A stretch of 64,000 bases of DNA, taken from the UHGV virus genome UHGV-1370141, one strand, 5' to 3'. The notes below the pieces were generated by a model. That model searched no databases, was not told the DNA's origin, and saw only the letters and a list, made by a program, of their open reading frames with translations. Both the position numbers and the translations under genes were made by a program. Every line of letters begins with the position of its first letter. Position 1 is the stretch's first letter. The DNA is from a virus. Of this stretch, positions 370 to 61,911 are shown one piece after another.

Positions 370-1257
370 ATGAAAAACGATTTACATTTAGCATATAACA
401 CTACATTTAACCATCCTTTGCAAATCTCTTCTCCAGATTCTGTACGTTATCATTTAAGTGATGACGTTCGTTTAATTACCATGCTACCTGGCGAATGGCC
501 GAAATTACGGGGCCGTGATATCGTCAACCGTGATAATATCTCCGTAGAAAATACTTTTACAATTCGTGATCTGCCGGTCGAACGTGTGATTGTTTTTACA
601 GGAGATGATGAACTTTATGGAATGATTGTTGATGGTAAATACTTCTTCAGTGACGGGGTTTTAAATGCTGGTAGCGATTTAGAACTTTTTTTTACACCGT
701 TTGCTGAGCTTGACGCTAAGCCTATGGTTCGCAGATGGTGGAGTCCAGATTACATGGGGGCTTTTCCGTATTACTATACTCTTGTTGGTAAGGATGTTGA
801 AGAGTATTCCGATAGTGAACCATACACCAACATTGAAGGTTATCAGGACCTCGGAATTGCACATTTAGCTGATTTAATGGCTTATAGCTATAAGTTCGAA
901 TGGATTCGTGAACGTTCTGTTTGGAAAGCCATTACTGACGACCATGTTATTACGAAACGTATTCGTAAACCATGGATGCAACATCTTGTTCAAATACGAT
1001 TTGGCCAAAGTCCAGTAACCGAGGCTGATATTTCTAAACTTGTTAGTTTTTTATTGTCTAAGGTTGAATTGACTGATGAAGAAGCCGAAGCTGTTAAGCC
1101 GATGCTTGATCGTATTGTGACCTTAGAAGACCTCAAAAGAATGAATAGTCGTTATAACGATCTTAATCGGTTGCTAGAGGCGTATAATTCGACAAAGGTT
1201 TTAAAACCTGGAGTCAATTTCGACGAAGATCCGTTGTTCGCTATCGACTATAATTAA
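370..1257 (+). CDS. hypothetical protein, accessory gene of the radical SAM cluster
   Basis: 295-aa ORF with a GAGG RBS before the ATG; sits between the peptides and the radical SAM genes; no recognisable motif. Confidence 0.55.
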   Translation: MKNDLHLAYNTTFNHPLQISSPDSVRYHLSDDVRLITMLPGEWPKLRGRDIVNRDNISVENTFTIRDLPVERVIVFTGDDELYGMIVDGKYFFSDGVLNAGSDLELFFTPFAELDAKPMVRRWWSPDYMGAFPYYYTLVGKDVEEYSDSEPYTNIEGYQDLGIAHLADLMAYSYKFEWIRERSVWKAITDDHVITKRIRKPWMQHLVQIRFGQSPVTEADISKLVSFLLSKVELTDEEAEAVKPMLDRIVTLEDLKRMNSRYNDLNRLLEAYNSTKVLKPGVNFDEDPLFAIDYN

Positions 1258-4763: not shown

Positions 4764-5294
4764 TTAAGCAGTAAAACCGTCCAATTCACCGTTGGTGGTG
4801 GCCAGGTCAATACGATTATCGACAACCTTCGGTGTAATTACGAAAGTTGCCATTACACCCGGTTTATAACGGAGGTTCTGTTCAGTAACGGTGCACGTCA
4901 CGGTACGCAGAGTGACGTTTTCATGTTCGTCTTTCTGGTCTTCGGTGCTGTACACAACGTCACCTGGCGCGATAGCGTCGTCAGGTTTTACTTTGTTGAT
5001 GTAATATTGTAACCAAGCGCGGAGTTCGTTTTCTTGAACCCAGCGAGACAGATCATCAGTTAGTTCAATCCGTCCTACAACACCTGGCTCCAGACGATCG
5101 TAATGCAGTTCGATTGCACCTTTGAAATTCTCAGAACCTGGTAGTGCAGTCATGGTAACTTTGGTATTCTTACTTTCGCCTTCCAGCGCAGTAGGGAGAC
5201 CAAAGGACACTTCTTTATCAGTAATCTGATGTGGTAGCTCAGTGTTAGCAGCATTATAAAGCGCGACCAACATCATCTGGTTAGTAGCGGCCAT
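4764..5294 (-). CDS. hypothetical protein, probably abundant virion protein
   Basis: 176-aa ORF with codon usage that looks strongly biased; C-terminus ...GELDGFTA is shared with the upstream paralog. Confidence 0.55.
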   Translation of the reverse strand: MAATNQMMLVALYNAANTELPHQITDKEVSFGLPTALEGESKNTKVTMTALPGSENFKGAIELHYDRLEPGVVGRIELTDDLSRWVQENELRAWLQYYINKVKPDDAIAPGDVVYSTEDQKDEHENVTLRTVTCTVTEQNLRYKPGVMATFVITPKVVDNRIDLATTNGELDGFTA

Positions 5295-5343
5295 TATCTT
5301 AGGTCCTTAATAGAACAAGTTAGAGAAATATCGGGGGAGGTCA

Positions 5344-5353
5344 CCCCCCCCCC
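5344..5353. repeat. homopolymeric C10/G10 tract in conserved TCACC-Cn-GATT context
   Basis: Ten consecutive C inside a G/C hairpin about 50 nt upstream of the start of 4764..5294. Confidence 0.6.
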
Positions 5354-5365
5354 GATTTAACTTAC

Positions 5366-16890: not shown

Positions 16891-17511
16891 TTATTTCATT
16901 CCGTTCTGAGAAAGTGTTGTCCCTGCAAGATGCTTAATAACGATCTTGACAGGCAAATTACTATTCTCGTACTGTACTTCGGTTTCAGACAAATCGGTGA
17001 TATCGACAACTTTAGAAGGTACTTTCGCTAAGACAACCCGAATGGTGTGGGTTATCGTACTGGCTGTGGTCTTTGTATTACTAATGTAGAAGTACGCATC
17101 AATAATACCGCCGTCTTCTGCCAGATAAACCAATTTATTTTCCAACAGACACTGGGTATAAATTGACACTCCAGATAATTGCGAAATCCCCAGTCTATTA
17201 TTAACGTCAACTGTTGTTTTGCAGATTACCGCACCACCTGTCAACGTTTTTTCTACCACCATATTTCCCGATAAGGTTTTTGCATCCATTTTTGGTACAA
17301 TCGGATGAGTGCCGTCAACAAACAACCCATCGCTGTTAGACTTAAGGATGTTATTCGCCGACGGACTCACTGTAACCTCGCCACCCCCTAATTTCTCAAT
17401 CGGGAGTTGGTATTCAGTTTGTTCCTTAGACGCTAAGACTACTACACCCGTGATGTCTTCTGAAAGTGTCTCCAGTTCATGAATGCGCACCTTTCCTACC
17501 AGTTCAGCCAT
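16891..17511 (-). CDS. putative short tail fiber/receptor-binding protein with conserved N-terminal anchor domain
   Basis: N-terminus MAELVGKVRIHELETLSEDITGVVVLASKEQTEYQLPIEKL matches the N-termini of the long tail fiber (23767) and of 26851..27312. Confidence 0.55.
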   Translation of the reverse strand: MAELVGKVRIHELETLSEDITGVVVLASKEQTEYQLPIEKLGGGEVTVSPSANNILKSNSDGLFVDGTHPIVPKMDAKTLSGNMVVEKTLTGGAVICKTTVDVNNRLGISQLSGVSIYTQCLLENKLVYLAEDGGIIDAYFYISNTKTTASTITHTIRVVLAKVPSKVVDITDLSETEVQYENSNLPVKIVIKHLAGTTLSQNGMK

Positions 17512-18026
17512 TAGTGGCCTCCGAATGTTAAGACACGGTTATCTGCGGTAACGATTAAATCGTTGTCTTTTACTACAGCGGCTTCTTCATCGTTACCGAA
17601 AACCAGAACGGAGAATTGGCCTTTATAACCTAACGAGTTGGGTGAAACCTGTAACGTTACAGCGTCTTTCCCTACGGTAAATGATTCGTCGGTAAGATCG
17701 TCGGGTTGTAAATTACAACCACAAGCCGCGTTAATTCCGTCGATTAGATCGTGTGCGGTAAAGCCATTACCGGAAACCTTTACCAGAATAGGTTGCTGGT
17801 TTAACCACCGCTCTGCGGTTAAACGGTTGTAATAAATCTGTAACGTTCTGTTGTCCGGACGTTTTATCTTTACAACAGCAGTGGTGTCACGATCCATTTC
17901 GTTACTGGTCTTTACGTCGCTGACTTCAACCTCGTTCTCTTGCAGGTCGAGCTGGAGGTCATGGTTAACCAGTGAAATAACCATGTTAAGTGAAGTTAAC
18001 GACAAATCTGGCGTGAATTGTTCCAC
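17511..18026 (-). CDS. hypothetical protein (paralog of 27278..27841), tail fiber-associated
   Basis: N-terminal ..PDLSLTSLNMVISLVNHDLQLDL.. aligns with ..PDLSLTSAELVVALINHDNGLQL.. of 27278..27841; GTG start preceded by AGGAGG. Confidence 0.5.
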   Translation of the reverse strand: MEQFTPDLSLTSLNMVISLVNHDLQLDLQENEVEVSDVKTSNEMDRDTTAVVKIKRPDNRTLQIYYNRLTAERWLNQQPILVKVSGNGFTAHDLIDGINAACGCNLQPDDLTDESFTVGKDAVTLQVSPNSLGYKGQFSVLVFGNDEEAAVVKDNDLIVTADNRVLTFGGH

Positions 18027-18081
18027 GTATGGTTACCTCCTATGATTGGGGAGACGTAAAATGTTGGCTAAAAACATTTCA

Positions 18082-18090
18082 CCCCCCCCC
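18082..18090. repeat. homopolymeric C9/G9 tract in conserved TCACC-Cn-GATT context
   Basis: Nine consecutive C about 55 nt upstream of the start of 17511..18026; same context as the C10 tract at 5344-5353. Confidence 0.6.
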
Positions 18091-18124
18091 GATTACGTTT
18101 TCAAGCACACTCGCTTGAAAATTA

Positions 18125-18631
18125 TTAACTGATTTTGAAATCTCTTAACGTACCAGTTGATCTCATCACGTTTTGAAAAGCAGTGCTGATGTTATTAGTC
18201 CAGTAGTAATGCTGTCCGTTAATAACCTGCTGATAGGTCAGTGCGCAAGTGTTACCGCCTAGATTTACAGTGATGTTAGAGGCCCTGCCGCCTTGTAAGT
18301 AAACCGCTAAACTAGGCCTTGCGTTGCCAACTACCGTCGTTAACTGTAATTCGATACCTACTAAAGTTCCCACCCCGCAGTTACCCGCGTTTTGAATGGT
18401 CCCCTGATTTTTCTGGTTTAACGGCCAATTTGGTCCTACTGCGCCCCATTTCTTACCTAAAGAATCTCTATATGCGGCAGTTGCAATTTTACAGCCCATA
18501 GATCTTCCCACCATTTGACTCATCATAAAAGGTCTACTCAATCCTAATTTACTACCCGCAGCGCTCATCCACTGTTCGCCCGTTTCATTCCTAGCTGAAG
18601 ATCCGACCCATCCTGACGCTACCCCCCCCAT
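18125..18631 (-). CDS. Gly-rich tail fiber-associated protein (paralog of 18648..19286)
   Basis: N-terminus MGGVASGWVGSSARNETGEQWMSAAGSKLG aligns with the 212-aa neighbour; a G8 homopolymer spans the start codon and codons 2-3. Confidence 0.5.
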   Translation of the reverse strand: MGGVASGWVGSSARNETGEQWMSAAGSKLGLSRPFMMSQMVGRSMGCKIATAAYRDSLGKKWGAVGPNWPLNQKNQGTIQNAGNCGVGTLVGIELQLTTVVGNARPSLAVYLQGGRASNITVNLGGNTCALTYQQVINGQHYYWTNNISTAFQNVMRSTGTLRDFKIS

Positions 18632-18647
18632 CTACCCTCCTTTTTAA

Positions 18648-19286
18648 TTAAACACGTGAACCGTATATTGCACCTACTGCGTCCCATCTTGGCGCATTAC
18701 CAGTAACAGCTTTACCAGCTGCTCCGCCGTTATATTCTGTACCGTTACCATGAGTATTACATCTTCCTCCAGCAGCACCGACATTACCACCCGAACCGCC
18801 TGTATATGCACTAAGAGACCCCTCACCAACAGATCCTCTACCAGGAGCGGAAATAGTACCAGCAGCTGCACCGGAACTCATATGAGAGGAAGACCCACCA
18901 GCACCGCCTGGCGAGTTAGAACCACCGTTGCCTCCTCTGCCGTATACTGTAACCCCAGGATTGATGATGAGTGTAATATACGAATTTGGAAGATTGCTAG
19001 GGAATTCTAAACAAGGAACCCCGCTACTATAAGACACTAAATCCCCTGTAATGGTCACAACGACAGCAGTAGAGCCTAAAGAACGTAAATAGTTAATAAG
19101 AGTATCCTTATTATAGCTATGGTTAGCACCAATAGAATAATGGACCTCTTTTGATTTTCCCGCCAATTGCGACATCCAGCCTGGAACCGGCACACCAAGT
19201 GTGCGCATCGCGCCAGACATCCATTCGTTACCAGCTTCAGCTTTTGCTGAAGAACCAATCCAACCACCTACGCCGACAACTGCCAC
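18648..19286 (-). CDS. Gly-rich tail fiber-associated protein
   Basis: 212 aa with long Gly/Ser/Ala tracts (GGNGGSNSPGGAGGSS...); GTG start overlapping the tail fiber stop by 1 nt. Confidence 0.5.
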   Translation of the reverse strand: MAVVGVGGWIGSSAKAEAGNEWMSGAMRTLGVPVPGWMSQLAGKSKEVHYSIGANHSYNKDTLINYLRSLGSTAVVVTITGDLVSYSSGVPCLEFPSNLPNSYITLIINPGVTVYGRGGNGGSNSPGGAGGSSSHMSSGAAAGTISAPGRGSVGEGSLSAYTGGSGGNVGAAGGRCNTHGNGTEYNGGAAGKAVTGNAPRWDAVGAIYGSRV

Positions 19287-22200
19287 TAGGATCTCCCTTT
19301 GATTTCGTTAACCTCTTGACGCAACGCTTTCATACCCTCTACTAACAGCGCAATAACGCCATTGTAGTTTAGACGTAAACGTTTTTCGCCTGAAATGGCA
19401 TCATCATCCTCAGACACAAGTTCAGGTAACGCTTCTAATGCGTCTTGAGCAATTAGACCTACAGAAGTTTGCCAACCGTCATCCGGATGCTGAATTTCGT
19501 ACAAATAACCAGTTAGTAACTCTAACCGATCCAAAGCCTTATCCAGCTTCACCAGATTACGTTTGTTACGACGGTCAGAACGAATCTGTACGTCGTTAAA
19601 CGAACCGTTACCGCTGCCAGTAACGTTATGACCAAAGGTTACTTGGCCATTAGCGTTATTAAAATACAACGGACGTAGTCCGTTCCAGGAACCCGTTGCA
19701 GCTTGTCCGGCGTCGGTTACTAAGAAATAGGTATTGGCACCATCGTTACGTAACATAAAGCCGTAGTTGCCGTAAGCGATTCGAAAATCAGGGTACTTAG
19801 TGACCAATTTACCGTTAACGGTTAAATCGCCACCTATAGTACCGCCCCCTGACGGTAACGCACCGATGTCACCAGCGTTAGGTTTGTTGTGTGTGCTGTA
19901 AATCAGATAGACGGTACCGTCTGTTAGTCCTGCGGGTTTATTAGCCGTATAGCTTGGCGATGTGTGAATCGTTACGTTGGCATTACTAGTGTAGTCCCAC
20001 TGAATATTAACACCGGTGGCGTAATTACCTATTTCAACATAAATATCGTAAGTGTCACCAGATGTATTCACCCATGCAAAATTAGTGAAGCCGACTGAGG
20101 TCAGTCGCCATAACGCACCAGTAATACCTTTTGGATTCCCATTTCCTGCACGCAGAACCAGCTCAGAGATACCTGCTTGATGCGGGGAACCAACGTTAAA
20201 CCCTGCACCACCAATCAGGCTTATGTAAACCACGGAACTGGCTTGTGGCATCGTTACAGTTGCTAGTTTGAACCATCCGGCACCACCATTAAAAGACACA
20301 GTTGTTGTGTTCGCGGCACCAACATTTCGTAAGAATTTTCTCTTATCTGGAATATCGGCACCGTTCTGTTTCTTCTGCAATGACCCACCGGCCAATTCTA
20401 CAGTTTGGCCAAGATTTAAACTTTCAGCCGTTATTTCGATGTTTTTAGTGCCGTCAAACGCAATACCGTTGATGGTTCTTGCAGTTTGCAACTTTGTTGC
20501 AGTGGCCGCGTTTCCGGTGGTCGACTGATTACCCGTTTGGTTTACTCCAGGAAGATTAACGTCTTTCGTCCCATCGAAAACCACACCACCGATCCTACGT
20601 CCTGTTTGTAACTTGGTAGCGGTTGCTGCATTACCTGTCGTATTCTGGTTGCCTTGCTGGTTAACCCCCGGTAAATTGATATCCCCAGTACCGTCAAAGG
20701 TAACGCCGCCGATTCTGCGAGCGGTTTTCAGTTTCGTCGCGGTAGCGGCGTTGCCGGTAGTATCTTGATTACCTGTGGTATTTACGCCAGGAATACTGTC
20801 ACGGGCAGTATAAACTTGTGCCCAATCTGACCACGGCGCATCTGCCGTATCACGTCGACTACGAATATAAACTGGCGCGTGCGCACCACTCGTGCCCGAC
20901 CAACCAATTAACAACTCGCCTTCGCCTAGCGCAGCAGAACCACCCAAATGCAGTAAGTTACCATAAGCGGTCGGATAACCGTTATTGTAAACTTCGTACA
21001 TCTGAATACCAGGCGTACCTTTGTTTGAACCAGTCAGTGCAGTAACACGTCCACGTCCTACCAACGTGTTGATATTGATGTCTCTAGACCCATCAAATTT
21101 CACACCGTTGATGTTTCGAGCCGTTTGTAATTTGGTTGCGGTTCCCGCGTTCCCAGAGGTGTTTTGATTACCTTGTTGGTTAACACCTGGGAGGTTAACG
21201 TCGCCGCTACCGTCGAAGGCGACCCCACCAATTCTACGTGCCGTCTTTAATTTAGTGGCGGTTGAAGCATTGCCTGTTAACTCACCTGCTAACCCTTTTG
21301 CAAAGGTCTGTTTTTCTGCCCAGGTGTGCGCTGCGTTCAATACAGGCATCTGGCGTGGCGTAATTGTTCGACTACCTTTCTCACCAGCGATACGAACAGC
21401 AAAGAAGCGATAGTTGGCAGTAGACACCGTACTACGCCAAACCAACATGCTCCGACCGGTGCCGGTGTCATCAGACGGCCCTACAAGGATGTTAACTAAG
21501 TTACCGTCAATCACACCCCAATCCATTCCCGCAGGAATATTTTTCATGGTGTTCAACGGTGACGTTAACATCTGACCGGGAACGAAGTCGTAGGTTTGCC
21601 AGTCTAACGGGTCAACCTTAGCAGCTACACCACCAATGCCTAAAACTAACGGAAGTGAATACGAGGTGAAAACCTCTCGCCACCCACTCCAAATGTTACC
21701 CGTACGGATACGTTGGAATTTACGACCTTTAGTTTCTCTACCCGTGCCGTATGTGGTATAATTCTGTTCGACCCCTGTACCGTCTAAGCGTAAGGTAACT
21801 TCACAAACGCCTACCACGGTTTCGCTAGAAGAACCGATAAGTGGACCGTTAGTTGCCTCACCAGTGACACTGAAACGACCCGGTTTAACGAGATCGTTAA
21901 AATTGGCTTTAAAGAAAGCACCGTCAGTCTGATAACCAACCTGAATCCAATCTTCCCATTGTGGGTTTGATGAATCCCACGTTGCAGTCAAACCACGGAC
22001 ATACATTGTGCCACGACGCGTAGTGTATCGCTGCAACCGTCCGAAAAGACCACCTTCCATTACTTCTAGTACGCCTTGCGCGTTACCGCCTTCTTCAGGG
22101 TAATGCCGGTCGAACACCGCTAACGAACTGGACGAGTTCCGCCAGTTACCCATATGCTCAGCGCCACCCAGAGAGTTCAAGTCTATAGAGGTAGACAGTG

Positions 22201-23767
22201 GGCGAACACCAGTGGTTACCATTCTCCACGGTGACCAGGGTCCATTAGTTCCGTTCCACACACCTGACAACATACGGTTGTACACGTTACCATTACGACA
22301 GGTAAAACGTTGCGCGCCACTGTAGTTGCCCGCTTTATACACTTCCAGATAACCGACTGCACCGTCTTCTGGGAAGTGTTTTGCCATCGACGCATTGGTT
22401 GATGTCGACTTAGACCACGTTCCTGTGTAATTAGCATCTGGAGCAAATGTGTTAATATCAGCATCTACAGGCATTTCGCCACGGAAACGCAGGTAGGTAT
22501 CAGGAGATAGGCCGATGTTGCGAGCAAAAGTTTCTTTATCTGGGATATCAGCGCCGTTAGAGTTTTTCTGTAACGCACCATTCGCTTTATCGACGGTAGT
22601 TTTCAAACCCAGGAAGTTAATGATATCCGCCGTCGACCCTTTCGCTAACAAATCGCGCGCAGTCGAGGTGAAATCCGCTAATCCCACCCGATTACTACCG
22701 GTAAAGTAAGGGAGTTTGTTTGCAGCGGTGGTGACTGCGGCAATCGCTGTCAGTAACGGACTTAACGGCTGTTTACCCGCGAGTTGGTTCGTTATCGTTG
22801 TCGCAAAGTTAGGATCGTTTCCTAACGCGGCTGCAATTTCTGATAACGTATCTAACGTCTCGGGTGAAGAGTCCACTAATTCAGCAATCGCTTGCCGTAC
22901 CCATGCCGTCGTTGAGACTGTCGTGTCGTTAGAATCCGCAGCAGGAGTCGGAGCTTTTACTACGCCAGTAAACGTCGGCGAGTGACGGTTTGCTTTTAAC
23001 TGCAAATCATCATTTAACTGCTTAACCGTTGACGGTGTAGCCGCTTCCGTAACCGAGTCACTGGTTAAGGTATTATTAAGTTTAACGATACCTTTACTGG
23101 ACGTTGTTGCATCAACGTTACCTTTTGCAGCGATTTCCTCTGCACGCTTAGCGGCTGCCTCAGAACGCGTTGCCGCATTCTCTGCGGTTTCTTTGTCTGA
23201 GGTAACTTGCGTTGCTGTAGCCTCTACAGAGGCTTTTGACGACTCTACTGACGCGACAGCTTCGTTAACTGCCGTAAGCGACTGTTCTACTTGACCGGCT
23301 TGTGTGGCAACAGTTTCTGCTTTCTTCGTAACGGTAGTCACCGCTTGTGTGACGTTGGCCTCGCTTGCCGCTACCGCTTGTGCTTTCTCATTAACGGACA
23401 CAACCTGGGTATCTACCGCCGTTTTCGCGGCTAACACTTCAGTGTGTTTTGTACCGACCTCAGTTGCTTTTTCGGTTACAGTTTGCGCTTGTTGAGCAAC
23501 CGTAGCCGCAACGGTGTCAGTTTGTTGTTTTGCTGTTTCTGCTAAATTCTTTGCTTGTGTAGCCTGAGTTGCAGCTTCTTGTGATTGTGTTGCTGCTGCT
23601 TGTGCATCAGACACCGCATTACGCACGGTGTCAATATCTGCAACGATCTCACGGACTGGTAACTTATAATCTTTCTCATCTTTGGAGAAAAGTAAAACAC
23701 CTTCACCGATATCCCCGGTGTATGGACGTAAGTCGTGTAAACGAATTTTCTTTACCGCTTTAGCCAT
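19286..23767 (-). CDS. long tail fiber protein with C-terminal intramolecular chaperone (peptidase S74-like) domain
   Basis: 1493 aa; Ala/Thr/Gln-rich N-terminal region after a conserved anchor; five tandem copies of a ~33-aa GN..TATKL.TAR.I.GV.FDG fibre repeat; C-terminus ..DRRNKRNLVKLDKALDRLELLTGYLYE..GLIAQD..NYNGVIALLVEG.. resembles the self-cleaving chaperone of tail fibers. Confidence 0.85.
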   Translation of the reverse strand: MAKAVKKIRLHDLRPYTGDIGEGVLLFSKDEKDYKLPVREIVADIDTVRNAVSDAQAAATQSQEAATQATQAKNLAETAKQQTDTVAATVAQQAQTVTEKATEVGTKHTEVLAAKTAVDTQVVSVNEKAQAVAASEANVTQAVTTVTKKAETVATQAGQVEQSLTAVNEAVASVESSKASVEATATQVTSDKETAENAATRSEAAAKRAEEIAAKGNVDATTSSKGIVKLNNTLTSDSVTEAATPSTVKQLNDDLQLKANRHSPTFTGVVKAPTPAADSNDTTVSTTAWVRQAIAELVDSSPETLDTLSEIAAALGNDPNFATTITNQLAGKQPLSPLLTAIAAVTTAANKLPYFTGSNRVGLADFTSTARDLLAKGSTADIINFLGLKTTVDKANGALQKNSNGADIPDKETFARNIGLSPDTYLRFRGEMPVDADINTFAPDANYTGTWSKSTSTNASMAKHFPEDGAVGYLEVYKAGNYSGAQRFTCRNGNVYNRMLSGVWNGTNGPWSPWRMVTTGVRPLSTSIDLNSLGGAEHMGNWRNSSSSLAVFDRHYPEEGGNAQGVLEVMEGGLFGRLQRYTTRRGTMYVRGLTATWDSSNPQWEDWIQVGYQTDGAFFKANFNDLVKPGRFSVTGEATNGPLIGSSSETVVGVCEVTLRLDGTGVEQNYTTYGTGRETKGRKFQRIRTGNIWSGWREVFTSYSLPLVLGIGGVAAKVDPLDWQTYDFVPGQMLTSPLNTMKNIPAGMDWGVIDGNLVNILVGPSDDTGTGRSMLVWRSTVSTANYRFFAVRIAGEKGSRTITPRQMPVLNAAHTWAEKQTFAKGLAGELTGNASTATKLKTARRIGGVAFDGSGDVNLPGVNQQGNQNTSGNAGTATKLQTARNINGVKFDGSRDININTLVGRGRVTALTGSNKGTPGIQMYEVYNNGYPTAYGNLLHLGGSAALGEGELLIGWSGTSGAHAPVYIRSRRDTADAPWSDWAQVYTARDSIPGVNTTGNQDTTGNAATATKLKTARRIGGVTFDGTGDINLPGVNQQGNQNTTGNAATATKLQTGRRIGGVVFDGTKDVNLPGVNQTGNQSTTGNAATATKLQTARTINGIAFDGTKNIEITAESLNLGQTVELAGGSLQKKQNGADIPDKRKFLRNVGAANTTTVSFNGGAGWFKLATVTMPQASSVVYISLIGGAGFNVGSPHQAGISELVLRAGNGNPKGITGALWRLTSVGFTNFAWVNTSGDTYDIYVEIGNYATGVNIQWDYTSNANVTIHTSPSYTANKPAGLTDGTVYLIYSTHNKPNAGDIGALPSGGGTIGGDLTVNGKLVTKYPDFRIAYGNYGFMLRNDGANTYFLVTDAGQAATGSWNGLRPLYFNNANGQVTFGHNVTGSGNGSFNDVQIRSDRRNKRNLVKLDKALDRLELLTGYLYEIQHPDDGWQTSVGLIAQDALEALPELVSEDDDAISGEKRLRLNYNGVIALLVEGMKALRQEVNEIKGRS
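20450..21300 (-). repeat. tandem in-frame tail-fibre repeats (about 99 nt unit; 3 + 2 copies), approximate bounds
   Basis: Repeated nucleotide blocks encoding GNQ.T.GNA.TATKLQTAR.I.GV.FDG..D.NLPGVNQ within the tail fiber gene. Confidence 0.55.
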
Positions 23768-26850: not shown

Positions 26851-27312
26851 TTAGTAACCCGCTGCAAGAAGAGAACCTTTCCAGGTGGCACCCCCATCAA
26901 GGGTATAAAGCGACAGAGTGTCTTCCGCATTTGCCGCGTAGGATAAAACCGGTTGTGCACCGTGAGGCCATTTAACGTTTTCAGGCCAGGTTACTTTATT
27001 CGCCCCTGTTCCTTGCTTAATCGTTAGCATTACTTCGAAACGGGTATTTTCTGCAACGTTGGTAAGGGCTGCGAACGTCACTGTAGTGTTAGGATCGTTT
27101 AACACCAGAATAATGTCAGTGCTGGTATTGAAATCCAACGTGGCGGCATTATTCGAACCGTTAACCGTGGTGACTGTCGCAACCGGGGCTAACTTATCAA
27201 CATCAATTTTATATTCTTTATTGTCTTTGCTATACAGCAGTACCCCGCCTTGGGGTGTGCCTGCGTAGCTTTCGAGCTCATGGAGTCTCGTCTTCTTCAG
27301 TGCTGTCGCCAT
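26851..27312 (-). CDS. tail fiber N-terminal anchor domain protein
   Basis: MATALKKTRLHELESYAGTPQGGVLLYSKDNKEYKIDVDKL matches the N-termini of the tail fiber and of 16891..17511; start placed at the ATG at 27312 rather than the ORF-track start at 27363. Confidence 0.55.
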   Translation of the reverse strand: MATALKKTRLHELESYAGTPQGGVLLYSKDNKEYKIDVDKLAPVATVTTVNGSNNAATLDFNTSTDIILVLNDPNTTVTFAALTNVAENTRFEVMLTIKQGTGANKVTWPENVKWPHGAQPVLSYAANAEDTLSLYTLDGGATWKGSLLAAGY

Positions 27313-27841
27313 CTGGAACCTCAAATGTAAGAACGGCATCGTCACCAATACAGAAGATTGCATCTTCTTCGTTTGCTAATGCCCGTTCGGTTGTATCAAA
27401 CAACGTCACCATAAACGCGTTCATCCACGCAGGAGAATCGTCGGCAACGTTAACGGAAATGGGATCGTTACCTAAAGTGATATCTGAAGCACGTAAATCC
27501 TCGGGTTGTAAGTTCGTTCCGCAGAATTCATTTACAACACTAAGAATGTCACGAACGTTGTCTTCAGTACCGTCTAACGAAATCAGAATGGGTTCATACG
27601 TTAATACTTCATCTGCGTCGAGTCTGTCGTAGTAAACCACAACAGACGCGCCATCCGGTTTTCTGATTTTACTGATTTCGGTAATGGTGTTACGACGCGA
27701 AGTTGTTGGGGATGGGTTTGTTACAGTTCCGCTAATACGGATTTCGTTTAGTGTAAGCTGTAACCCGTTATCATGATTGATTAAAGCGACCACTAGCTCT
27801 GCTGAGGTCAGACTCAAATCAGGTACGTATGGTGTGGCCAC
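27278..27841 (-). CDS. hypothetical protein (paralog of 17511..18026), tail fiber-associated
   Basis: 187 aa; paralogy to 17511..18026; acidic C-terminus. Confidence 0.5.
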   Translation of the reverse strand: MATPYVPDLSLTSAELVVALINHDNGLQLTLNEIRISGTVTNPSPTTSRRNTITEISKIRKPDGASVVVYYDRLDADEVLTYEPILISLDGTEDNVRDILSVVNEFCGTNLQPEDLRASDITLGNDPISVNVADDSPAWMNAFMVTLFDTTERALANEEDAIFCIGDDAVLTFEVPDGDSTEEDETP

Positions 27842-59625: not shown

Positions 59626-61911
59626 TTATTTACCAGCTTTGTCTTTACCGTCGCCAGCAACATTACCTGCTACACCACCTTCGGTTTGTTTCTGGCCGTT
59701 CTGTTCTACAGAAACGTTGTAAGCCAGTTTTTCTTCAACCAGTTTAGTGATGCCTTTAACCCAAATCAGACCAGTGATCGGGCAGTGGCAGATATGCGCG
59801 TTACGCGGCTGTACAGCCAGTTCTTTAGAAGTAGAACTGTTACGCTGGATGTTGATGTTGGTAACCATGATCGGAGACCAGAAGTGGTTACCCCAGTTCA
59901 GTACGCAGTAGGAACCATCGTCCGCAGTCGGAACTTTCAGGAACCATTGCAGACGACGAGTCCAGGAATCGTCAGCTGCGTTGTAGATACGCCAGCGGTC
60001 ATCGTTGGTGGTAACGACTTCGTATTCATAACGGTCGCCCAGCAGACGTTGGTCGCCCTGAACCAGCAGCAGCATGGATGCAGTCGGTTCGTCAGTTGCG
60101 ATAATAACTTTCGGCAGAATGTCCGGATCAGCGGTCAGCAGGCGCAGTGCAGGAATGAAACGAGAATCCTGGATAGCCTGAGTTACCTGGCTACCGATAC
60201 GCTGCAACAGACCCTGACGAGCGTTGATCAGCGCTTCTTTGGTATCCAGAGACTGAACAACTTCATCGACTTTGTAGTCAGACTCTTTGAACCACGGAGC
60301 AACCCAGTGACGGCCCAGACCACGGATAGCCGGTTTGTCCCACGGAGTGATCATCGCAGCGGCTGCGTTACGTACTGCTTCGGTGTAAGACAGCGTCTGA
60401 GTAATAGCCAGCTGTTCGTTACGGATGTTCACCGCAGAGATCAGGTCGTCCAGACGTTCAGTGTCGTCGTATTCAACACCAACCGGAGACTTGGTCAGAA
60501 TCGGAGAACCGTATTGCAGTTTGTAGTTTTCCTGTTCCCAAATTGGGTCAAGCAGCAGACCCTGGGTACGACGGTTTTCGTTGGTACGAGTACCATCGAA
60601 GCGCCAGCCCATCAGCTCGAGCTTCAGGCCGTCCAGGATAACTTTACCGGTACCAGACTTGGTATCAACTTTGTTACCAGTTGCATCGTACAGACCTTCG
60701 ATTTCCAGTTTGTGGCCGGAAATGTCTACTTTACCACCGAACTGGCCGCTGGTGAACAGGGACATGGTGATGGTGATAACGTAGCGCAGGGTGTAGGAGT
60801 TCTGGCCCAGTGCTTGCAGAGCCGGAATAGCTGCACCAGTCCAGTCGGTAGTTTTCGCATTCAGAGAGAACGCGGTACGACGGAATTGCAGAACCAGTTC
60901 ACGGCCGTCACCTTCAGCAGGACGCTGGAAGGTTGCGAACTGCATGTCACGAACGTGCAGTTTGATGAATTTACCCGCTTTCGCTTCTTCGGTCGGTTTA
61001 CGTACAGAAATCAGCAGGCTGCCCAGAGCACAACCCGGTGCGATTTCATCAGTTTCATCGTAACCTTCCTGAACGATACCCGGATGCGCAGACAGCTGGA
61101 ACAGGTTCAGCGTGTCGTTTGCAAAGCTCAGGTAGTTAGTCGGATACGGAGGTACACGACCCAGGCGAACGGTTTCGTTCGGAACCAGTTCTTCGCTTAC
61201 GAAGTATTCCTGGTTTTCACCGGTTTCCATTACGTAAGGAACGATGTTGATCGCTTCGTCCTGGAGAACGGTGTGGTCAGTCAGTGCGTTGTGCAGCGGA
61301 CGACGATGGTCTTCAACCACGTCTTTGCTCAGCAGCGCGTTCATGATACCGCGAGAAACGGTAGTCACTTTAGTACGTACGGTAATACCAACATCGTTGG
61401 TGTCAACGGTAATGGTCGGGAACAGCGTTTCAGCAAACTTGGACTGAGTTTCCAGAGCACGTACGTTCAGGGTCCAGGTCAGGCCCAGGTTTTTGTCGTA
61501 GTCTTTGTTGCTGTAGTATTCCTGAGCAACAACCATGCGCTCACGACCCCAGTCACCACCTTGCGCACCAGGGATACCAATATCCAGGTTATACTTGCTG
61601 TGGAATTCCGGCTTAGCGTATTCCTGGGCAACACGTTCTTGCAGGTCTTTACCGTGGTTAGCTGCGCCCAGAATCATTGCGGAGGCGACAGTCGCAGCAT
61701 GAGACATTTTCTTGCCACCAAAAGCGTTGGCATAGTGCTGTGATGCTTCGTCACGCAGAGCGCCAAACACTTTTGCGTTGCTACGTACGGACTCGCCTGC
61801 AACAATCGTGTTCCACATTTCGCTGGCGGTGTTGTTGCCGATGACGTTTTGGGCCAGACTAGTACCGGCTTCTACGAGTTTCTCTAAATTAGAGATTCGG
61901 GTATCTTTCAT
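59626..61911 (-). CDS. major virion structural protein (candidate major capsid or tail sheath protein)
   Basis: 761 aa; codon usage looks the most biased in the window; own strong terminator; the antisense strand gives a long artefactual ORF typical of highly biased genes. Confidence 0.55.
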   Translation of the reverse strand: MKDTRISNLEKLVEAGTSLAQNVIGNNTASEMWNTIVAGESVRSNAKVFGALRDEASQHYANAFGGKKMSHAATVASAMILGAANHGKDLQERVAQEYAKPEFHSKYNLDIGIPGAQGGDWGRERMVVAQEYYSNKDYDKNLGLTWTLNVRALETQSKFAETLFPTITVDTNDVGITVRTKVTTVSRGIMNALLSKDVVEDHRRPLHNALTDHTVLQDEAINIVPYVMETGENQEYFVSEELVPNETVRLGRVPPYPTNYLSFANDTLNLFQLSAHPGIVQEGYDETDEIAPGCALGSLLISVRKPTEEAKAGKFIKLHVRDMQFATFQRPAEGDGRELVLQFRRTAFSLNAKTTDWTGAAIPALQALGQNSYTLRYVITITMSLFTSGQFGGKVDISGHKLEIEGLYDATGNKVDTKSGTGKVILDGLKLELMGWRFDGTRTNENRRTQGLLLDPIWEQENYKLQYGSPILTKSPVGVEYDDTERLDDLISAVNIRNEQLAITQTLSYTEAVRNAAAAMITPWDKPAIRGLGRHWVAPWFKESDYKVDEVVQSLDTKEALINARQGLLQRIGSQVTQAIQDSRFIPALRLLTADPDILPKVIIATDEPTASMLLLVQGDQRLLGDRYEYEVVTTNDDRWRIYNAADDSWTRRLQWFLKVPTADDGSYCVLNWGNHFWSPIMVTNINIQRNSSTSKELAVQPRNAHICHCPITGLIWVKGITKLVEEKLAYNVSVEQNGQKQTEGGVAGNVAGDGKDKAGK

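What the first reader, a model, noticed from the sequence alone, without database searches (positions are those of the whole stretch)
18622..18631. G8 homopolymer spanning the start codon of a Gly-rich tail fibre accessory gene
The minus-strand gene 18125..18631 begins ATG-GGG-GGG-G.., a run of eight G from the start codon through codon 3. A single-nucleotide slip would frameshift the gene immediately, giving an on/off switch for a putative receptor-binding accessory protein.
Basis: seen in the sequence. Interest (0 to 1): 0.65.

Follow-up and report, generated by a model that had tools for sequence, protein, structure and literature searches.

The report
PolyG tract at adhesin start codon
A run of eight G's sits on the start codon of one of two alternative receptor-binding tip genes of a giant Enterobacteriaceae phage; related phages carry 4-, 5-, 8- and probably 9-G versions, some of which switch the gene off, so it is a likely slippage-driven on/off site of a kind already known in other phages.

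Summary
On the minus strand, ATG (18631-18629) runs into G8 (18629-18622), served by AAGGAGGG. The gene (18125-18631) is not an accessory. It is a 168-aa gp38-family fibre-tip adhesin (Pfam Gp38_N, PHROG 1121), the second of two tandem adhesin genes behind a 1493-aa fibre gene in a ~225-kb phage with a phiKZ-type capsid protein.

G8 is derived. Fifteen related contigs read ATG-GGG-GTA (G5) and nine have no run. The window strain (at least 3 assemblies) has an in-frame +GGG. G/C runs of 6 or more are strongly depleted in this phage (6 found, about 51 expected, in 222 kb). This is the only coding G/C run of 7 or more seen.

Out-of-frame alleles exist. One contig has G4 (ATG-GGG-TAG) with an otherwise intact gene. 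A 187-aa NCBI protein matches the predicted G9 product in length and junction. One protein body occurs as 167-, 168- and 147-aa forms. A nearby intergenic G9/G10 is the only difference across 8.4 kb between two assemblies.

Best reading: a slippage hotspot that heritably toggles adhesin 2, leaving adhesin 1. Whether it is a selected switch is unproven, and no within-population data were available. This is a new member of a known kind (Campylobacter-phage polyG, T-even contingency loci).

The parts
18622..18629 (-). G8 homopolymer: the G of ATG, GGG, GGG, and the first G of GTA
   Evidence: Relatives have G5, G4 or no run at this site.
18629..18631 (-). ATG start codon of adhesin 2
   Evidence: The start is homologous to that of all family members, which begin MGV[AT]SGW or MAVASGW.
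18635..18642 (-). Shine-Dalgarno-like AAGGAGGG, ending 3 nt (TAG) upstream of the ATG
   Evidence: Read. Conserved in relatives with small variations (GGAGGG, GAGGG, GGTGGG; A5 or A6 before it).
18125..18631 (-). Adhesin-2 gene, 168 aa, a gp38-family short adhesin
   Evidence: PHROG 1121 'tail fiber adhesin', E = 4.6e-44 over residues 3-162. Pfam Gp38_N, 67.6 bits against a cut-off of 25. Homologues are annotated as tail fibre adhesin / Gp38 in Stx phages and T4-like phages.
18509..18625 (-). Coding region of the Gp38_N fibre-attachment domain (residues 3-41)
   Evidence: It is 53% identical over 38 aa to the same domain of the upstream gp38.
18566..18568 (-). Internal ATG (Met22). It is the first in-frame start left in G4/G7/G10 alleles and gives a 147-aa product lacking half of the attachment domain.
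   Evidence: Allele simulation. 147-aa products are on record: P0002, P0013, P0026, P0038.
18685..18687 (-). ATG inside the 3' end of gp38, in another frame. The adhesin body fuses to it in G6/G9/G12 alleles, giving 186-188 aa.
   Evidence: Simulation. P0009 (187 aa, NCBI EDF1098026.1) begins MGRSRCNLWFTCLIKKEGRWGGVASGW, matching the G9 prediction in length and junction; residues 8-9 are LW versus the predicted IR.
18648..19286 (-). Adhesin-1 gene: 212-aa gp38 (Gp38_N plus the GP38 polyglycine domain). Its stop codon lies 16 nt before the adhesin-2 ATG.
   Evidence: Pfam PF05268 at 5.3e-45 and PF21721. PHROG 2056. Its 3' 260 nt are 85-92% identical to gp38 of Krischvirus/T-even phages.
19286..23767 (-). 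Tail fibre gene, 1493 aa, with a C-terminal intramolecular chaperone. It is the presumed carrier of the two adhesins.
   Evidence: Pfam Gp34_trimer, Peptidase_S74 and Phage_fiber_2. Many tail-fibre PHROGs.

Best explanation
The G8 is a slippage-prone homopolymer. It arose by an in-frame +GGG expansion of the conserved ATG-GGG-GTA (G5) start of a gp38-family fibre-tip adhesin gene. This gene is the second of two tandem adhesin genes whose products share the N-terminal domain that docks onto the fibre tip.

In the G8 state the gene is ON: 168 aa, with one extra Gly at position 2/3, a position where the family tolerates length variation.

A +/-1 slip during phage DNA replication leaves the only Shine-Dalgarno-served ATG reading MGG* (G7) or a 13-aa peptide (G9). 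The adhesin body then sits behind starts with no ribosome-binding site: Met22, which lacks half of the attachment domain, or an ATG 56 nt upstream inside gp38. Such progeny would heritably and reversibly lack adhesin 2 while keeping adhesin 1. That would change which receptor-binding tips decorate the fibres.

Shown here: the tract, its derived status, the reading-frame consequences, natural alleles of different length including out-of-frame ones, and instability of a comparable polyG run in this very strain.

Inferred: the slippage rate at G8, the loss of function in OFF alleles, competition of the two adhesins for one docking site, and any host-range effect or selective value.
For: (1) Anatomy: the SD, the ATG and G8. 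The frame consequences of G4-G12 were simulated.

(2) Gene identity: Gp38_N plus PHROG 1121. Gp38 is a monomeric adhesin whose N-terminal domain attaches it to Gp37 (PMC12032242). The two tandem genes share only that domain. Tandem Gp38_N genes occur in most relatives.

(3) G8 is derived. G5 occurs in 15 distinct related contigs and no run in 9. G8 occurs only in the window strain. All cluster representatives start MGV.

(4) Out-of-frame alleles occur in nature. L071 reads ATGGGGTAG (G4), and the remaining 165 codons are intact and 96% identical to the window's. P0009 (187 aa) has the predicted G9 length and fusion junction. One identical protein body is on record as 167 aa (G5), 168 aa (G8) and 147 aa.

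(5) PolyG is unstable in this lineage. L045 and the window are identical over 8,444 bp except for G10 versus G9 in the intergenic run 540 nt away. That run ranges from G6 to G11 among relatives.

(6) G/C runs of 6 or more are about 8-fold depleted genome-wide, as expected if they are mutagenic.

(7) Precedent: SSR indel frequencies of about 3e-4 and reversible frameshift switching were measured in T2/T4 (bioRxiv 10.1101/2025.10.21.683753). Hypermutable polyG tracts are reported in Campylobacter phages (Sorensen 2021, title seen).
Against: - No read-level or within-population data. Every assembly of the G8 strain (3-5 contigs) has G8, even where the neighbouring intergenic run changed.
- G8 is confined to one strain plus one other contig (P0027). 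It is not conserved, as an evolved contingency locus usually is.
- The G9 and 147/124-aa alleles are inferred from protein records, and their DNA could not be fetched.
- At least one 147-aa record (P0002, IMG) is a gene-calling difference on a G8 contig of the same length.
- OFF alleles also arise from G5 (L071), so they may simply mark a dispensable gene.
- Tail-fibre genes are, if anything, depleted of SSRs in coliphages.
- The slippage behaviour of this phage's family B polymerase is unknown.
Confidence: 0.55

Rival explanations
1. Incidental indel in a redundant gene. The extra GGG is a neutral in-frame slip that adds one Gly. The G4/G9 and truncated alleles in relatives are ordinary loss-of-function mutations, tolerated because adhesin 1 suffices. 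There is no selected or biologically meaningful switching.
For: - G8 is restricted to one strain, and relatives have G5 or no run.
- The no-run alleles ATGGC[GT]GTA show that the run is not needed.
- Some relatives carry only one adhesin gene (L051, L074) or another fibre type (L076, L078).
- All G8-strain assemblies are in frame.
- The genome-wide depletion of G/C runs argues that such runs are normally purged.
Against: - The lesions recur at this one site in several backgrounds (G4, G9, 147- and 124-aa calls), while the rest of the ORF stays intact.
- The same protein body is found with G5 and with G8.
- The tract sits at the extreme 5' end of a receptor-binding gene, the classic position of contingency tracts.
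- A G9/G10 change separates otherwise identical genomes.
Confidence: 0.3
2. Expression tuning rather than on/off. The G-rich start region modulates translation initiation, or allows transcriptional or ribosomal slippage. Possible routes are local structure, a G-quadruplex formed with the flanking GGG blocks, or pairing with the anti-SD. The tract would then set the amount of adhesin 2 relative to adhesin 1.
For: - G8 lies 3 nt after a strong SD and is flanked by GGAGGG and GGATGGG blocks.
- G GGG GGG formally fits an X XXY YYZ slippery heptamer.
- Alleles also differ in the poly-A (A5/A6) and in the SD itself.
Against: - The 81-nt start region has no significant secondary structure: minimum free energy -10.8 kcal/mol, z = +0.62, and 147 of 200 shuffles fold as well.
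- The -1 and +1 frames end after 3-13 codons, with no functional trans-frame product.
- There is no downstream stimulatory structure.
- G-quadruplex formation was not tested.
Confidence: 0.07
3. Sequencing or assembly artefact: the true tract is G5 or some other length, miscalled in a homopolymer.
For: - Homopolymers are error-prone on some platforms.
- One relative (L039, CYGL01000001.1) clearly carries indel errors or lesions in several genes.
Against: - G8 is read identically in the window, Logan ERR414475 and ENA ERZ1304834 (the latter in 3 samples).
- 5 contigs encode the identical 168-aa product.
- An artefact would rarely add exactly 3 bases and preserve the frame.
Confidence: 0.03

Closest known systems
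Hypermutable polyG tracts of Campylobacter phages (Sorensen et al. 2021, Cell Rep 35:109214; title seen; details from my own knowledge)
   Same: A G homopolymer inside a phage gene involved in host recognition. Length changes by slippage give ON/OFF subpopulations and phenotypic diversity.
   Different: In those phages, several long tracts per genome are conserved across a genus and were shown experimentally to vary. Here there is a single, strain-specific G8 in a genome otherwise purged of G/C runs, with no population data.
Phage contingency loci in T2/T4 (Gomez, Barrick & Waters, bioRxiv 10.1101/2025.10.21.683753)
   Same: An SSR of 6 or more bases in a phage ORF. Reversible +/-1 frameshifts occur at about 1e-4 to 1e-3 and are proposed as bet-hedging.
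   Different: Those are mostly A runs in agt, rIIA and other genes, and SSRs were under-represented in tail-fibre genes. Here the tract is a G run on the start codon of a receptor-binding adhesin, in a phage with a phiKZ-type capsid protein, and it is untested.
Bacterial contingency loci (polyG/polyC at the 5' ends of surface-structure genes in Campylobacter, Neisseria, Haemophilus)
   Same: Tract position at the 5' end of the ORF, tract length (G8), translational ON/OFF logic, and a target that is a surface-interaction protein.
   Different: The replicon is a virus using its own family B polymerase, not a cell. The tract is not conserved among relatives.
T2/T6/S16-type Gp38 long-tail-fibre adhesins (PMC12032242; Pfam PF21721 + PF05268)
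   Same: An N-terminal Gp38_N attachment domain. The gene lies directly behind a fibre gene that ends in a cleavable chaperone-like domain. It is the receptor-binding tip.
   Different: The 168-aa protein lacks the polyglycine-sandwich GRM/HVS domain and has a different beta-rich C-terminal domain (PHROG 1121). Two such adhesin genes sit in tandem. The host phage is a ~225-kb jumbo phage, not a member of Straboviridae.
Other heritable phage host-range switches (Mu Gin / P1 Cin invertible tail-fibre segments; Bordetella BPP-1 diversity-generating retroelement); from my own knowledge
   Same: The same outcome: a phage population carrying alternative receptor-binding tips.
   Different: A different mechanism. 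No invertase, inverted repeats or reverse transcriptase is involved here, only replication slippage.

Membership tests
Gp38-family fibre-tip adhesin | N-terminal Gp38_N attachment domain (PF21721) | tested here: met
   67.6 bits against a cut-off of 25, residues 3-41. 53% identity to the same domain of the adjacent gp38.
Gp38-family fibre-tip adhesin | Gene immediately downstream of a long fibre gene (gp37-like, with a C-terminal chaperone or processing domain) | tested here: met
   The order is fibre 19286-23767 (Peptidase_S74, Gp34_trimer), then gp38, then this gene. In L051, L074 and CMS-2020a the short adhesin directly follows the fibre gene.
Gp38-family fibre-tip adhesin | C-terminal polyglycine-sandwich domain with GRM/HVS (PF05268), as in canonical T2-type Gp38 | tested here: not met
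   No PF05268 hit for the 168-aa protein. Beyond residue 45 there is no similarity to gp38. It belongs instead to the short adhesin family PHROG 1121.
Gp38-family fibre-tip adhesin | Physical attachment to the fibre tip and receptor binding | not testable with these tools
   The AF2 monomer model has low confidence (pLDDT 65.5; N-terminus below 50) and found no PDB fold match.
Contingency locus (phase-variable SSR) | A simple repeat placed so that +/-1 unit changes switch expression | tested here: met
   G8 spans the start codon. G7 gives MGG* and G9 gives a 13-aa peptide.
Contingency locus (phase-variable SSR) | Tract-length polymorphism, including OFF lengths, among closely related genomes | tested here: inconclusive
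   G4, G5 and G8 are read in DNA, and G9 and others are inferred from proteins, across relatives with 91-96% identical genes. Within the G8 strain itself, only G8 is seen.
Contingency locus (phase-variable SSR) | Elevated, reversible switching rate within a clonal population | not testable with these tools
   No reads or lysates were available. The only indirect evidence is the G9/G10 difference in the neighbouring run between otherwise identical sequences.
Contingency locus (phase-variable SSR) | A long tract maintained by selection across the lineage | tested here: not met
   24 of 26 distinct related contigs have G5 or no run (one more has G4). No G>=7 allele was found in IMG/VR, JGI metagenomes or GTDB representatives.
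Campylobacter-phage-type polyG system | Several long polyG tracts per genome in coding genes | tested here: not met
   This is the only coding G/C run of 7 or more in the 64-kb window. There is none in a 222-kb relative.
Programmed ribosomal frameshift site | A slippery site plus a stimulatory structure plus a functional trans-frame product | tested here: not met
   The alternative frames stop after 3-13 codons. There is no significant local structure (z = +0.62).

The most novel reading that the evidence does not exclude
The start-codon polyG is a genuine, selected contingency locus of a jumbo phage. By toggling the second of two adhesins that compete for one docking site on the fibre tip, it would produce mixed progeny with one-adhesin and two-adhesin fibres. 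That would be bet-hedging of host range across Salmonella, Shigella, E. coli and Enterobacter. It would be the first such switch at a gp38-type adhesin and the first outside Campylobacter and T-even phages. A possible link is the polymorphic G6-G11 hairpins in front of DUF7941 genes, which might be a second layer of polyG-dependent control.
Probability: 0.2. Interest if true: 0.65.

Novelty: new member of a known kind. Interest (0 to 1): 0.45.

Why it matters
If the tract switches at 1e-4 or more, any stock of this phage is a mixture of particles with different receptor-binding tips. That affects host-range assays, the interpretation of resistance, and phage-therapy use. It would also extend phage contingency loci to gp38-type adhesins and to jumbo phages with a phiKZ-type capsid protein. 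If it does not switch, the case still shows two things. Replication slippage at the conserved ATG-GGG-GTA start recurrently makes and breaks this adhesin gene in nature. And gene callers then report 124-, 147-, 168- or 187-aa 'proteins' for one gene.

Tried and rejected
G9 therefore rests on protein-to-frame inference.
- Pattern scans of GTDB representative genomes, IMG/VR and JGI metagenomes for tract alleles found only G5. None had G>=7.
- Looking up the window-strain body as G5, G6, G9 or G11 products found none on record.
- A Fisher test of out-of-frame calls in expanded-tract versus G5 backgrounds gave p between 0.0004 and 0.07, depending on classification. I do not rely on it. Contigs are not independent, IMG's 147-aa call is a gene-calling artefact, and L071 shows that OFF alleles also arise from G5.
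- Searches for a solved structure or fold gave nothing: no PDB sequence hit, an AF2 model with pLDDT 65.5, and no Foldseek match with E <= 0.001.
- Rfam has no family in the window.
- Programmed frameshifting and local RNA structure at the start were considered and rejected.
- The neighbours 26851-27363 and the 147-aa truncated product were not on record in the contig index.

Full report
OBSERVATION. On the minus strand the window reads AAAAAGGAGGGTAG-ATG-GGG-GGG-GTA-GCG-TCA-GGA-TGG. The A of ATG is at 18631 and the run of eight G's is at 18629-18622 (C8 on the + strand).

The run is not a chance feature of base composition. The 64-kb window contains only three G/C homopolymers of 6 or more, against 12.6 expected, and all three are 8 or longer, against 0.64 expected. 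I reconstructed a complete 221,873-bp relative (NZ_CP173450.1). It has 6 G/C runs of 6 or more against about 51 expected, and its only runs of 7 or more are two intergenic ones that the window shares. The start-codon G8 is therefore the only coding G/C run of 7 or more seen in this phage type. It is also the only GGG-GGG among 39 Gly-Gly codon pairs in the tail-fibre module.

It is not an assembly artefact. The identical 168-aa product is carried by 5 contigs. G8 is read in two independent assemblies: Logan ERR414475 and ENA ERZ1304834, the latter present in 3 samples.

WHAT THE GENE IS. The window comes from a jumbo phage with a phiKZ-type major capsid protein (PF25620, 689 bits, at 59626-61911). 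Related contigs are 205-232 kb and come from Salmonella, Shigella and E. coli assemblies and from metagenomes. Two relatives are deposited as circular 'plasmids', one from E. coli and one from Enterobacter ludwigii.

The 168-aa protein has a Pfam Gp38_N domain (67.6 bits, residues 3-41). It matches PHROG 1121 'tail fiber adhesin' over its full length (4.6e-44). Homologues annotated as tail-fibre adhesin or Gp38 occur in Stx phages, SSU5-like phage-plasmids and T4-like phages.

The gene is the second of two tandem adhesin genes behind a 1493-aa fibre gene that ends in a Peptidase_S74 chaperone domain (19286-23767). The first adhesin gene (18648-19286, 212 aa) is a canonical gp38 with the polyglycine domain (PF05268). 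The two proteins share only the N-terminal 45 residues, at 53% identity. According to the Gp38 literature, Gp38 is a monomeric adhesin and this N-terminal domain attaches it to the fibre protein Gp37 (PMC12032242). Tandem Gp38_N genes are the common arrangement in relatives. A few relatives have only the short adhesin, and a few have a different fibre type. So the gene is a receptor-binding tip protein, not an accessory. It is only moderately Gly-rich at 14.3%.

COMPARATIVE ANATOMY OF THE TRACT. I read the start region in every related locus fetched. Among distinct jumbo-phage contigs:
- 15 have ATG-GGG-GTA (G5).
- 9 have ATG-GC[GT]-GTA (no run).
- The window strain alone has G8.
- One (L071, ENA ERZ28615512, 225,527 bp) has ATG-GGG-TAG (G4).

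All cluster representatives of the family start MGV. G8 is thus a derived, in-frame +GGG expansion of a conserved G5, adding one Gly at position 2/3. The length of the segment before the GW[VI]GSSA motif varies in the family (5-7 residues in the alignment; up to 10 in gp38 variants), so the insertion is probably tolerated (inference).

CONSEQUENCES OF LENGTH CHANGE. I simulated G4 to G12 on the window sequence.
- G5, G8 and G11 are in frame.
- G4, G7 and G10 make the SD-served ATG read MG*, MGG* or MGGG*. The first in-frame start is then Met22, giving a 147-aa product that lacks half of the attachment domain.
- G6, G9 and G12 give a 12-14-aa peptide from the canonical ATG. They fuse the body to an ATG 56 nt upstream inside gp38, which has no obvious SD, giving 186-188 aa.

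The start region has no significant RNA structure (z = +0.62).

NATURAL OFF ALLELES. L071's G4 is read directly. The remaining 165 codons are open and 96.4% identical in protein to the window's, so the only lesion is at the tract. The gene caller reports 124 aa there, starting at Met45.

In the 328-member 90% cluster most members are 167 aa. P0009 (NCBI EDF1098026.1, Salmonella Enteritidis, 187 aa) begins MGRSRCNLWFTCLIKKEGRWGGVASGW. This has the length and junction predicted for G9; its upstream peptide differs from the window-based prediction only at residues 8-9, LW for IR.

Exact look-ups of hypothetical products gave the following.
- One body (that of P0013) is on record as 167 aa (G5, 2 contigs), 168 aa (G8, 1 contig) and 147 aa (3 contigs).
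- The P0009 body is on record only as 187 aa and 147 aa.
- The window body is on record only as G8, plus a 147-aa IMG call.

That IMG call is a gene-calling difference. The contig has the same length (225,879), and IMG also writes the GTG-started gp38 as 'V...'.

As a control, truncated 147-aa forms exist for only 1 of 6 common G5 or no-run bodies. A formal enrichment test is not robust, and I do not rely on it.

POLYG INSTABILITY IN THIS STRAIN. L045 and the window are identical over 8,444 bp except for one base. The intergenic run 540 nt downstream of the tract is G10 in L045 and G9 in the window and L035. Among relatives that run ranges from G6 to G11, or is interrupted. A run of comparable length thus changes on the shortest evolutionary scale visible here. 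The start-codon G8 stayed G8 in the same genomes. That is consistent with selection for the ON frame at consensus level, or simply with too few samples.

INTERPRETATION. The best-supported reading is that the tract is a replication-slippage hotspot that heritably and reversibly turns adhesin 2 off and on while adhesin 1 remains. This makes it a de facto contingency locus.

The steps shown are the anatomy, the derived state, the frame consequences, natural length variants including OFF ones, and local polyG instability. The steps inferred are the rate at G8, non-function of OFF alleles, competition of the two adhesins for one docking site, and any host-range or fitness effect.

The main rival is that this is a neutral Gly insertion in a redundant gene, and that the OFF alleles are ordinary tolerated knock-outs. 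It is favoured by the lack of conservation of the long tract and by relatives with no run at all. An expression-tuning role and an artefact are unlikely.

COMPARISON WITH WHAT IS KNOWN. Slippage-driven ON/OFF sites in phage genes have precedent.
- Hypermutable polyG tracts in Campylobacter phages (Sorensen 2021). I saw only the title in reference lists, and the paper itself is not held.
- SSR contingency loci in T2/T4, with measured indel frequencies of about 3e-4 and about 1000-10000-fold faster reversion than point mutations (bioRxiv 10.1101/2025.10.21.683753).

That preprint also reports SSRs under-represented in tail-fibre genes. A tract on an adhesin start codon is therefore somewhat unusual but not a new principle. 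The present case fails the 'conserved tract' criterion and has no population data. I therefore file it as a plausible new member of a known kind, not as a demonstrated phase-variable gene.

VERDICT.
- Observation: confirmed.
- Interpretation: partly supported.
- Novelty: new member of a known kind.
- Interest: 0.45.

Noticed in passing
window 18048-18090 (-) with G9 at 18082-18090; window 5330-5356 (-) with G10 at 5344-5353: The other two long G runs are the 5' arms of strong intergenic hairpins with a shared AATC-Gn-TGA...CCCC motif (minimum free energy -34.4 kcal/mol, z = -6.1 for the 18040-18125 region). Each lies just upstream of a DUF7941 gene (17511-18026 and 4764-5294). Both are conserved in a 222-kb relative. 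The run length varies from G6 to G11 among relatives, and G9 versus G10 between otherwise identical 8.4-kb sequences. No Rfam family matches, and the function is unknown (terminator, processing site or regulator).
   Followed up: partly
whole window; NZ_CP173450.1 (L055-L059): G/C homopolymers of 6 or more are about 8-fold depleted in this phage type (6 observed against about 51 expected in 221,873 bp). A/T runs reach 10. This suggests strong selection, or a mutational bias, against G/C runs.
   Followed up: partly
L040 (NZ_CP134650.1, Enterobacter ludwigii, 222,441 bp) and L041/L055-L059 (NZ_CP173450.1, E. coli 98232, 221,873 bp): Close relatives of this jumbo phage with a phiKZ-type capsid protein are deposited as circular 'plasmids' of complete bacterial genomes. 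Contigs of 205-232 kb recur in Salmonella, Shigella and E. coli isolate assemblies. This hints at a carrier or pseudolysogenic state, or at frequent phage carry-over in cultures. No close relative is in the phage collection searched (best match about 72% over one tail gene).
   Followed up: no
window 18646-18906; L001 (CMS-2020a); Stx phages: The tail-fibre tip module is mosaic across very different phages. The 3' 260 nt of gp38 are 85-92% identical to Krischvirus/T-even gp38. The short adhesin type is shared with Stx2 phages (P13374, 75/02 Stx), SSU5-like phage-plasmids and T4-like PEi20.
   Followed up: partly
L039 (CYGL01000001.1) reverse strand, about 1850; compare window 17380-17392: A relative has a G10 inside a tail-spike-like ORF (..ELQ-GGG-VTEPD..), at the junction after the conserved N-terminal anchor. 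The window's 206-aa paralogue has the interrupted GGGGGTGGC there. The same contig has a broken adhesin and a split downstream gene, so it may be an error-prone assembly.
   Followed up: partly
window 686-693 (+), in ORF 370-1257: A T8 run lies inside a coding ORF (CTT TTT TTT ACA, ..LFFT..). It is another potential slippage site in a gene of unknown function.
   Followed up: no
window 18641-18645 (-) and homologous sites in L002, L041, L047: The poly-A just upstream of the SD of adhesin 2 is A5 in the window and A6 in several relatives. The SD itself varies (GGAGGG, GAGGG, GGTGGG, GGAGGA). This is a second small length polymorphism in the same initiation region.
   Followed up: no
protein records P0002, P0009, P0012, P0013, P0026, P0038: One adhesin gene appears in public protein collections as 124-, 147-, 167-, 168- and 187-aa 'proteins', depending on tract length and gene caller. 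IMG aa even on a G8 contig. Length heterogeneity in clusters can be a cheap screen for start-codon tracts, but it needs DNA confirmation.
   Followed up: partly
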